Assembly: GCF_013122565.1 (NCBI RefSeq) | Contig: NZ_CP053258.1 | Origin: Escherichia coli | GTDB lineage: Bacteria > Pseudomonadota > Gammaproteobacteria > Enterobacterales > Enterobacteriaceae | DNA: 64,000 bases | Direction: 5' to 3' (one strand) | In this document: positions 42,491 through 42,524 of the stretch, in pieces | Numbering within the stretch: the stretch's first letter is position 1 | Layout of the letters: every line of letters starts with the position of its first letter | Notes under the pieces: generated by a model | What the model was told of the DNA's origin: nothing | Seen by the model: only the letters and a program-made list of their open reading frames with translations | Database searches by the model: none | Translations under genes and position numbers: made by a program

Positions 42491-42524
42491 TTCGACCAGT
42501 CAGCATATTTGCTGACTGGTCGAA
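42491..42524. terminator. Perfect 15-bp inverted repeat between convergent yfbK and elaD
   Basis: TTCGACCAGTCAGCA-tatt-TGCTGACTGGTCGAA read directly from the sequence. Confidence 0.55.

What the first reader, a model, noticed from the sequence alone, without database searches (positions are those of the whole stretch)
42491..42524. Perfect 15-bp inverted repeat between yfbK and elaD
TTCGACCAGTCAGCA-tatt-TGCTGACTGGTCGAA is an unusually long perfect palindrome for a simple terminator and lacks a clear U-run on either side. It could be a bidirectional terminator, a protein-binding site, or a recombination scar at the boundary of the AT-rich elaD segment.
Basis: seen in the sequence. Interest (0 to 1): 0.3.

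Follow-up and report, generated by a model that had tools for sequence, protein, structure and literature searches.

The report
Shared hairpin ending two convergent genes
The perfect 15-bp palindrome is real and single-copy, and is most likely an ordinary RNA hairpin that marks and protects the ends of the two genes transcribed towards each other (yfbK and elaD), not a recombination scar or a new kind of element.

Summary
Window 42491-42505 and 42510-42524 form a perfect 15-bp inverted repeat with a 4-nt loop. It starts 20 nt after the yfbK stop, lies in the 3' UTR of convergent elaD, and sits exactly where GC drops from 0.49 to 0.34.

Both transcripts would fold it very stably (-29.1 and -26.9 kcal/mol; z about -9). 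Neither side has a U-run. It is single-copy in every E. coli genome that has it, so it is not a repeat family. It matches no Rfam family, phage or true plasmid.

It is not the junction of the elaD segment. Genomes lacking elaD (phylogroup B2, cryptic clades) keep no half-site and carry a REP-like hairpin instead. E. albertii lacks elaD yet has a homologous imperfect hairpin with one compensatory pair change.

Published data show bicyclomycin-sensitive (Rho-dependent) termination at the elaD 3' end, and C exceeds G just downstream on that strand. No published 3'-end map that I could read lists an end at the hairpin.

Best reading: a U-tract-less 3' stem-loop shared by convergent genes, acting as a pause or barrier and as exonuclease protection, with Rho doing the release at least for elaD. 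This is a known kind. Interest is low.

The parts
42491..42505 (.). Left arm of the perfect inverted repeat (TTCGACCAGTCAGCA)
42506..42509 (.). 4-nt loop (TATT on the + strand, AAUA in the elaD-sense RNA)
42510..42524 (.). Right arm of the inverted repeat (TGCTGACTGGTCGAA)
40743..42470 (+). yfbK (vWA-domain protein, 575 aa). Its stop codon lies 20 nt upstream of the hairpin.
42588..43763 (-). elaD (deubiquitinase), here 391 aa. A 1-nt deletion near 42591 truncates it relative to the 403-aa K-12 protein. In K-12 the stop codon lies 16 nt from the hairpin; here it lies 63 nt away.
42391..42490 (-). C-rich, G-poor 100 nt immediately downstream of the hairpin on the elaD-sense strand (C=31, G=16). 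Candidate Rho-loading (rut) region; this is inferred.
   Evidence: class description in PMC6061677; Rho termination region near the elaD 3' end in PMC7815308
42530..42544 (.). Small second hairpin (TAACA-ATGAT-GTTA region; 5-6 bp) just right of the palindrome. In K-12 it abuts the elaD stop codon.
   Evidence: (MFE of 42471-42560)

Best explanation
The palindrome encodes one stem-loop used by both convergent transcripts, yfbK mRNA (+ strand) and elaD mRNA (- strand). Because the DNA is a perfect palindrome, each RNA forms the same 15-bp hairpin just outside the footprint of a ribosome stopped at its stop codon.

With no U-tract, the hairpin is unlikely to release RNA polymerase by itself. Three roles are proposed:
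(i) A pause or barrier that stops each polymerase from running antisense into the opposite gene.
(ii) A block to 3'->5' exonucleases (PNPase, RNase II) that fixes and stabilises the mature 3' ends.
(iii) Polymerase release supplied by Rho loading on the C-rich RNA just downstream, at least in the elaD direction.

Shown here: existence, stability on both strands, absence of a U-tract, single copy, position between the two stop codons, C>G downstream on the elaD-sense strand, and near-invariance in about 4,200 E. coli genomes. Taken from the literature: bicyclomycin-sensitive read-through at the elaD 3' end, and the existence of these hairpin classes. Inferred: that transcripts actually end at this hairpin and that it stabilises them.
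For: Position: the hairpin starts 20 nt after the yfbK stop and, in K-12, ends 16 nt before the elaD stop, centred in a 70-nt spacer.

Stability: -29.1 kcal/mol on the + strand and -26.9 kcal/mol on the - strand, with no shuffle folding as well.

No U-tract on either side.

Rho: in PMC7815308 supplementary file 2 a Rho termination region is called at NC_000913.3 2383800 on the elaD-sense strand. Reads upstream/downstream are 165/21 untreated and 264/122 with bicyclomycin, giving a Rho score of 3.63. The palindrome lies about 140-175 nt downstream of that position.

C>G downstream on the elaD-sense strand (31 vs 16 in 100 nt). PMC6061677 describes this for Rho-dependent transcripts, whose steady-state 3' ends lie just after stable stem-loops without U-rich tails.

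Preprint 10.1101/2022.10.23.513370 describes hairpin-encoding bidirectional terminators between convergent E. coli genes that do not resemble intrinsic terminators.

Local precedent: the rbn 3' end is mapped right after a hairpin whose tail on that strand is UUAUCGCAA (PMC10687069 supplementary file 5).

Conservation: the palindrome is perfect in 3,717 of about 4,203 genomes that have the region. Only 2 of 34 palindrome columns vary, against about 25 of 136 flanking columns, in 10 diverse alleles. Both E. coli variants seen leave a G.U pair on one strand and a still very stable hairpin (-20 to -26.5 kcal/mol).

E. albertii keeps a homologous hairpin at the same place with a compensatory A-U to G-C change.

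The alternative allele of the spacer (B2, cryptic clades) also carries a stable hairpin of about -20.5 kcal/mol on both strands. Selection therefore seems to be for 'a hairpin here' rather than for this sequence.
Against: No 3' end is listed at the hairpin on either strand in three published tables: Adams et al. Term-seq and TRS files 4 and 5. This may only reflect low expression of both genes.

The Rho call has about 800-nt resolution, so it does not place termination relative to the hairpin.

On the yfbK-sense strand there is no C>G bias downstream (12 vs 17).

Covariation is statistically weak: one compensatory pair among 5 distinct sequences, and 90 of 500 shuffles do as well.

A 15-bp perfect stem is longer than protection or pausing would need.
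Confidence: 0.6

Rival explanations
1. Self-sufficient (Rho-independent) bidirectional intrinsic terminator: the hairpin alone dissociates RNA polymerase coming from either gene.
For: The hairpin is very stable on both strands. It lies between convergent stop codons. The + strand tail begins UU and scores at about the 95th percentile of random 15-mers (3.06; K-12 3.35). Even with bicyclomycin, reads still fall about 2-fold across the elaD 3' end (264 to 122).
Against: The defining 7-8-nt U-rich tract is absent on both sides, and the - strand tail score of 2.02 equals the random mean. Read-through at the elaD end rises 3.6-fold when Rho is inhibited. No mapped 3' end is reported.
Confidence: 0.12
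2. Functionless palindrome: an imperfect hairpin (as in E. albertii) was made perfect by template-switch (quasipalindrome) mutation. It persists because it is harmless and the haplotype is young.
For: The E. albertii homologue is imperfect: an 11-bp stem with one mismatch and one G.U pair. The E. coli palindrome is perfect, which is more than any RNA function needs. The elaD-linked haplotype is little diverged overall, with 93-99% identity across 170 nt. No 3' ends are mapped here. Quasipalindrome correction is an established mutational process (from my own knowledge).
Against: Variation inside the palindrome is lower than in its flanks (2 of 34 vs about 25 of 136 variable columns). A stable hairpin occupies the same spot in every allele of the spacer examined, including the unrelated REP-like allele and Superficieibacter. 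This argues that a hairpin is selected at this position.
Confidence: 0.18
3. DNA-level operator: a dimeric protein binds the 34-bp palindrome (for example a GntR/FadR-type factor, given the TGGTC/GACCA cores).
For: Perfect dyad symmetry. Each arm contains GACCAGTC/GACTGGTC, which resembles the TGGTC..GACCA core of the LldR box AAnTGGTCnGACCAnTT (PMC10272880). An LldR genomic-SELEX peak is reported in yfbK.
Against: That peak (2,383,166) falls inside yfbK about 1.2 kb from the palindrome, assuming the older U00096.2 numbering (my inference). The authors assign other sequences to it. The half-site orientation here (ACCAGT...ACTGGT) is the reverse of the box. The site lies between two 3' ends with no promoter-like site within 1 kb. 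There is no second copy in the window at up to 2 mismatches and one copy per genome. The E. albertii homologue changes 8 of 28 positions while keeping pairing.
Confidence: 0.06
4. Recombination scar or attachment site left by insertion of the AT-rich elaD segment.
For: The palindrome lies at the compositional boundary. It is 40-60 bp from where three structural haplotypes diverge: the class-2 junction at 42431 and the B2 and E. albertii divergence at about 42440-42450.
Against: The boundary lies inside the yfbK 3' end, not at the palindrome. elaD-less genomes have no arm or half-site and no match to the core pattern. There is no related repeat at the right end of the segment, which ends at the rbn stop next to an unrelated hairpin. 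E. albertii has the hairpin but no elaD. No integrase, phage or plasmid link was found.
Confidence: 0.04

Closest known systems
U-tract-less protective stem-loops at the 3' ends of Rho-dependent E. coli transcripts (Dar & Sorek 2018, PMC6061677)
   Same: An energetically stable stem-loop with no U-rich tail and no upstream A-tract. There is C>G enrichment directly downstream on the elaD-sense strand. The gene is poorly expressed. Bicyclomycin-sensitive read-through occurs at the elaD 3' end.
   Different: No steady-state 3' end has been mapped at this hairpin. The stem (15 perfect bp) is the longest perfect inverted repeat in this 64-kb window. The yfbK-sense side lacks the C>G signature.
Overlapping bidirectional terminators between convergent genes (Ju et al. 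2019, as summarised in preprint 10.1101/2022.10.23.513370)
   Same: A hairpin-encoding element shared by a convergent gene pair that does not look like an intrinsic terminator. It is proposed to pause polymerase from either direction.
   Different: That class is described as Rho-independent and efficient at highly expressed pairs. Here the elaD side is bicyclomycin-sensitive, and both genes appear to be weakly expressed: no 3' end is listed for either in the termini tables. The SEnd-seq list itself could not be read.
REP (repetitive extragenic palindromic) elements
   Same: An extragenic palindrome in a 3' UTR, often between convergent genes. REPs act as partial, partly Rho-dependent terminators and as mRNA stabilisers (preprint 10.64898/2026.03.23.713779). 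The alternative allele of this same spacer (B2 and cryptic clades) carries a REP-like hairpin.
   Different: It is single-copy and has no REP consensus, so it is not a member of that family.
Canonical intrinsic (Rho-independent) terminator
   Same: A stable GC-containing stem-loop shortly after a stop codon.
   Different: There is no U-tract on either strand, and the stem is about twice the usual length.

Membership tests
Intrinsic (Rho-independent) terminator | Stable stem-loop shortly downstream of the stop codon | tested here: met
   15-bp stem, 8 G-C pairs, -29.1 and -26.9 kcal/mol. It lies 20 nt after the yfbK stop and 16 nt (K-12) or 63 nt (window) after the elaD stop.
Intrinsic (Rho-independent) terminator | 7-8-nt U-rich tract immediately 3' of the stem | tested here: not met
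   Not called by the terminator scan. Tail scores are 3.06 (+) and 2.02 (-), against 4.1-5.5 for the T-run-tailed hairpins in the window.
Intrinsic (Rho-independent) terminator | Termination independent of Rho | tested here: inconclusive
   Literature only. A Rho score of 3.63 is called at 2383800 on the elaD-sense strand, at about 800-nt resolution, and a residual 2-fold drop remains with bicyclomycin (PMC7815308).
Protective 3' stem-loop of Rho-dependent transcripts | Stable stem-loop without U-rich tail or upstream A-tract | tested here: met
   class definition
Protective 3' stem-loop of Rho-dependent transcripts | C-over-G enrichment (rut) just downstream | tested here: inconclusive
   Met on the elaD-sense strand (C 31 / G 16 in 100 nt). 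Not met on the yfbK-sense strand (12 / 17).
Protective 3' stem-loop of Rho-dependent transcripts | Steady-state RNA 3' end mapped directly after the stem, extended in pnp/rnb mutants | not testable with these tools
   No 3' end is listed at 2383800-2384099 in PMC7815308 or in PMC10687069 files 4 and 5. The Dar & Sorek supplement is not held.
Overlapping bidirectional terminator of convergent genes (SEnd-seq class) | Hairpin-encoding element between a convergent gene pair, with overlapping 3' ends from both strands | tested here: inconclusive
   Geometry and hairpin are met.
REP elements | Many dispersed copies per genome sharing the REP consensus | tested here: not met
   One copy per genome in 3,762 genomes. 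No other copy in the window.
Transcription-factor operator | Dyad-symmetric site placed at or near a promoter, usually with related sites elsewhere | tested here: not met
   The dyad is present. No promoter-like site occurs in 42000-43000, the site lies between two 3' ends, and there is no related site in the window.
Island attachment site or recombination scar | Lies exactly at the junction, with a copy or half-site at the other end or in empty-site genomes | tested here: not met
   The junction lies 40-60 bp to the left, inside yfbK. Empty-site genomes and the right end have no copy.
Any Rfam RNA family | Score at or above the family's gathering threshold | tested here: not met
   Only sub-threshold eukaryotic miRNA and snoRNA hairpin matches (23 bits or less against thresholds of 30-100).

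The most novel reading that the evidence does not exclude
The hairpin is a DNA-level fragile or template-switch site that has repeatedly seeded rearrangements at this locus. Three independent haplotype breakpoints lie within 42431-42453, only 40-60 bp from it: the yfbK deletion junction, the elaD presence/absence boundary, and the E. albertii divergence point. Alternative alleles of the spacer carry different hairpins. On this reading the palindrome helps to explain why yfbK and elaD are each missing from a large fraction of E. coli genomes.
Probability: 0.06. Interest if true: 0.45.

Novelty: new member of a known kind. Interest (0 to 1): 0.15.

Why it matters
It matters little beyond annotation. 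It adds one unannotated 3'-end hairpin to the E. coli map. It also gives a clean natural example in which a single perfect palindrome serves two convergent, weakly expressed genes, one of them a horizontally acquired, Rho-silenced effector gene (elaD).

The locus could serve as a test case for separating hairpin pausing, Rho release and exonuclease protection, because natural alleles exist in four states:
- a perfect palindrome;
- single-arm variants that preserve pairing on only one strand (G42511A in 316 genomes; C42496T);
- an imperfect homologue (E. albertii);
- an unrelated REP-like hairpin (B2 and cryptic clades).

Tried and rejected
**Repeat family.** Rejected: the 34-mer occurs once per genome in 3,762 of 5,426 complete E. 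coli genomes, and the arm has no second copy in the window.

**Known RNA family.** Rejected: Rfam gave only sub-threshold chance hits.

**Mobile-element origin.** There were no phage matches. The six 'plasmid' hits all carry the chromosomal yfbK/rbn context.

**Recombination scar.** Rejected by comparison with the Nissle, BL21, VCSW5, cryptic-clade and E. albertii alleles.

**LldR binding.** The published genomic-SELEX peak is inside yfbK, about 1.2 kb away by my coordinate conversion, and is assigned to other sequences.

**Covariation test.** It was run on 5 distinct alleles. It found one compensatory pair and was not significant.

**3'-end mapping in the literature.**
- Adams et al. 2021 and the TRS paper list nothing at the site.
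- TERMITe supplements have no entry for either gene.
- Dar & Sorek and the Nanopore paper have no held supplements.
- Ju et al. 2019 and Peters et al. 2012 are not held.

**Literature search for the sequence itself.** It found only unrelated human primers.

**Search for yfbK relatives across genomes.** It returned only 10 loci. Salmonella, Shigella and E. fergusonii were not sampled.

Full report
**1. The observation**

The window reads TTCGACCAGTCAGCA-TATT-TGCTGACTGGTCGAA at 42491-42524, a perfect 15-bp inverted repeat with a 4-nt loop.
- It is the longest of only eight perfect inverted repeats (stem >=10, loop 3-10) in the 64-kb window. Block shuffles give 0.15 such repeats.
- As RNA it folds to -29.1 kcal/mol on the + strand (16 pairs, counting a closing G.U) and -26.9 kcal/mol on the - strand, with z-scores of -9.8 and -8.7.
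- As single-stranded DNA it folds to -18.5 kcal/mol, z -11.2.
- It lies between yfbK (+, 40743-42470) and elaD (-, ORF 42588-43763). The gene names are confirmed by alignment to annotated E. coli genomes.
- GC falls from 0.49 to 0.34 across it and stays at 0.33-0.39 through elaD.
The consensus terminator scan does not call it. A d'Aubenton-Carafa-type tail score is 3.06 (+) and 2.02 (-). Random 15-mers give mean 2.07 and 95th percentile 3.24; hairpins followed by T runs in the same window score 4.1-5.5.

**2. Copy number and distribution**

- The 34-mer occurs in 3,762 of 5,426 complete E. coli genomes, always once per chromosome, and is perfect in 3,717.
- The surrounding 170 nt is present in 4,203 genomes.
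- A G42511A variant accounts for another 316 genomes. A C42496T variant occurs in strain VCSW5.
- Each variant breaks pairing on one strand but leaves a G.U pair on the other, and the hairpins stay at -20 to -26.5 kcal/mol.
- In ten diverse alleles, 2 of 34 palindrome columns vary against roughly 25 of 136 flanking columns. This is a mild depletion.
- The arm has no other copy in the window. There is no Rfam match, no phage match and no literature mention. The 'plasmid' hits all keep the chromosomal context.

**3. The locus is a mosaic, but the palindrome is not the seam**

Three arrangements exist in E. coli.
- **yfbK-palindrome-elaD-rbn.** This is the arrangement in K-12 and in this window.
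- **yfbK deleted.** Window positions 40875-42430 are missing, on a left flank that is only 79% identical, while palindrome-elaD-rbn is intact (BL21, O157:H7, VCSW5).
- **No elaD and no palindrome.** yfbK faces rbn directly across 120 bp (Nissle 1917/B2).

The elaD-linked haplotype starts inside the last ~40 nt of yfbK (about 42431-42450) and ends at the rbn stop codon (about 43940-43950). The palindrome therefore lies 40-60 bp inside the segment.

The elaD-less allele keeps no arm of the palindrome. It carries a different, REP-like hairpin instead (TCTGTTTGCC[T/G]GATA...TAT[C/T]CGGCAAACAGA, about -20.5 kcal/mol on both strands). The same allele occurs in E. whittamii, two unnamed Escherichia species and a divergent E. 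coli.

E. albertii has no elaD. Yet 24 nt after its yfbK stop it has GGCCAGUCAGC-AAUAUA-GCAGAUUGGCC. This shares a 10-nt exact match (CCAGTCAGCA) with the E. coli left arm and carries a compensatory A-U to G-C change at pair 42495/42520. No other part of its spacer resembles the elaD segment. The hairpin thus goes with the yfbK 3' end rather than with elaD. The 'recombination scar' reading fails.

**4. What it most likely does**

In K-12 the hairpin sits in a 70-nt spacer, 20 nt after the yfbK stop and 16 nt after the elaD stop. That places it just beyond a terminating ribosome on either mRNA. Every allele of this spacer that I examined has a strong hairpin there, even when the sequence is unrelated. 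This points to selection for a 3'-end hairpin.

Two known classes fit a hairpin without a U-tract.
- Dar & Sorek (PMC6061677) showed that Rho-dependent E. coli transcripts end, at steady state, just after stable stem-loops lacking U-rich tails. C>G-rich rut regions lie immediately downstream, and the stem-loops protect against PNPase and RNase II.
- The S. Liu laboratory describes hairpin-encoding bidirectional terminators between convergent genes that do not resemble intrinsic terminators and act as pause sites (preprint 10.1101/2022.10.23.513370).

The local data favour a contribution from Rho on the elaD side.
- Adams et al. (PMC7815308, supplementary file 2) call a Rho termination region at 2383800 on the elaD-sense strand. 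Reads upstream/downstream are 165/21 untreated and 264/122 with bicyclomycin, giving a score of 3.63.
- The 100 nt downstream of the hairpin on that strand have C=31 and G=16.
- On the yfbK-sense strand there is no such bias (12/17). The tail starts with UU and scores at the 95th percentile of random 15-mers, so a weak intrinsic or pausing contribution is possible there.
- A second Rho region (2382764, K-12 - strand) and a T-run-tailed hairpin at window 43911-43939 lie further along that path, before rbn.

**5. What is missing**

No published table that I could read lists a 3' end at the hairpin. This holds for Adams Term-seq and for TRS files 4 and 5. The most likely reason is that both genes are poorly expressed in laboratory culture.

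The same TRS table does map the neighbouring rbn 3' end directly after a hairpin whose tail on that strand is UUAUCGCAA. U-less hairpins therefore do mark real 3' ends at this very locus.

Covariation support is thin: one compensatory pair among five distinct sequences, matched by 90 of 500 shuffles. A neutral origin cannot be dismissed, for example quasipalindrome correction of an albertii-like imperfect hairpin to perfection. I give that reading 0.18.

**6. Other rivals**

An operator is unlikely.
- The site lies between two 3' ends with no promoter-like sequence within 1 kb.
- It is single-copy.
- The E. albertii homologue changes 8 of 28 positions while keeping pairing.
- The arms contain GACCAGTC/GACTGGTC, reminiscent of the LldR/FadR-type core, and an LldR genomic-SELEX peak is reported in yfbK (PMC10272880). 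By my conversion of coordinates that peak is about 1.2 kb away, and the authors assign it to other sequences.

**7. Verdict**

The interpretation 'bidirectional terminator' is right in spirit. The element is best filed as a U-tract-less 3' stem-loop shared by a convergent gene pair, a known kind, and not as a canonical intrinsic terminator, an operator or a scar. It is a new, unannotated member of a known class and of low interest (0.15).

Noticed in passing
window 43911-43939: Hairpin AACAGGGC-AAGTTTC-GCCCTGTT followed by TTTTTAAT on the + strand, just past the rbn stop (43951). The T-run faces the strand antisense to both elaD and rbn. Even so, the published rbn 3' end (NC_000913.3 2382571) maps right after this hairpin on the rbn-sense strand, where the tail is UUAUCGCAA (PMC10687069). 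It belongs to the elaD-linked haplotype and is absent from B2-type genomes.
   Followed up: partly
window 42588-42600 (elaD 3' end): A 1-nt deletion relative to K-12 (TTTTA-TTCT) truncates ElaD to 391 aa, against 403 aa in K-12 (92% identity). The same allele in E. coli VCSW5 is annotated as a frameshifted pseudogene.
   Followed up: yes
window 20000-26000 and 40743-42470: The source genome is not K-12 and is not closely represented among 5,426 complete E. coli genomes. The best identity is 98.9% over alaA-lrhA-nuoABC and 98.6% over yfbK, with 96.8% to K-12 over the 2.4-kb yfbK-elaD-rbn stretch (42000-44400). It may be a Shigella or an unsampled E. coli lineage.
   Followed up: partly
window 40875-42430: yfbK is almost entirely deleted in many E. 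coli genomes (BL21, O157:H7, VCSW5). Only 2,513 of 5,426 genomes hold 80% or more of the gene. The DNA left of the deletion is a divergent allele, only 79% identical to the window, whereas the DNA to the right is 94-99% identical. This marks a recombination boundary at about 42431.
   Followed up: partly
L001 3480-3525 (Nissle 1917); L012, L015, L016, L021: In elaD-less genomes the yfbK-rbn spacer carries a REP-like hairpin (TGCC[T/G]GATA...TATCCGGCA core) of about -20.5 kcal/mol on both strands. It is conserved across B2 E. coli, E. whittamii and two unnamed Escherichia species.
   Followed up: partly
window ~40885-40940, - strand: A published 3' end (NC_000913.3 2385575, K-12 + strand) lies antisense inside the 5' part of yfbK, after a -21.8 kcal/mol hairpin followed by CUCUUUUAUU (PMC10687069). 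The hairpin sequence is present in the window. It implies antisense transcription across yfbK, either from elaD read-through past the palindrome or from internal promoters.
   Followed up: no
window 42453-42479: A small 6-bp hairpin (ACTGAC-ATCG-GTCAGT) overlaps the yfbK stop codon and is followed by GATGACTTTTT. It is the only terminator-like call in 42000-43000. The T-run is interrupted in K-12 (GACTGTTT), so it is probably not a conserved signal.
   Followed up: partly
NC_000913.3 2382764 (-) and 2383800 (+), equivalent to window ~43700 (+) and ~42665 (-): Published Rho termination regions lie on both strands within elaD (PMC7815308, supplementary file 2). This is consistent with Rho silencing of sense and antisense transcription in this AT-rich, probably horizontally acquired gene.
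   Followed up: partly
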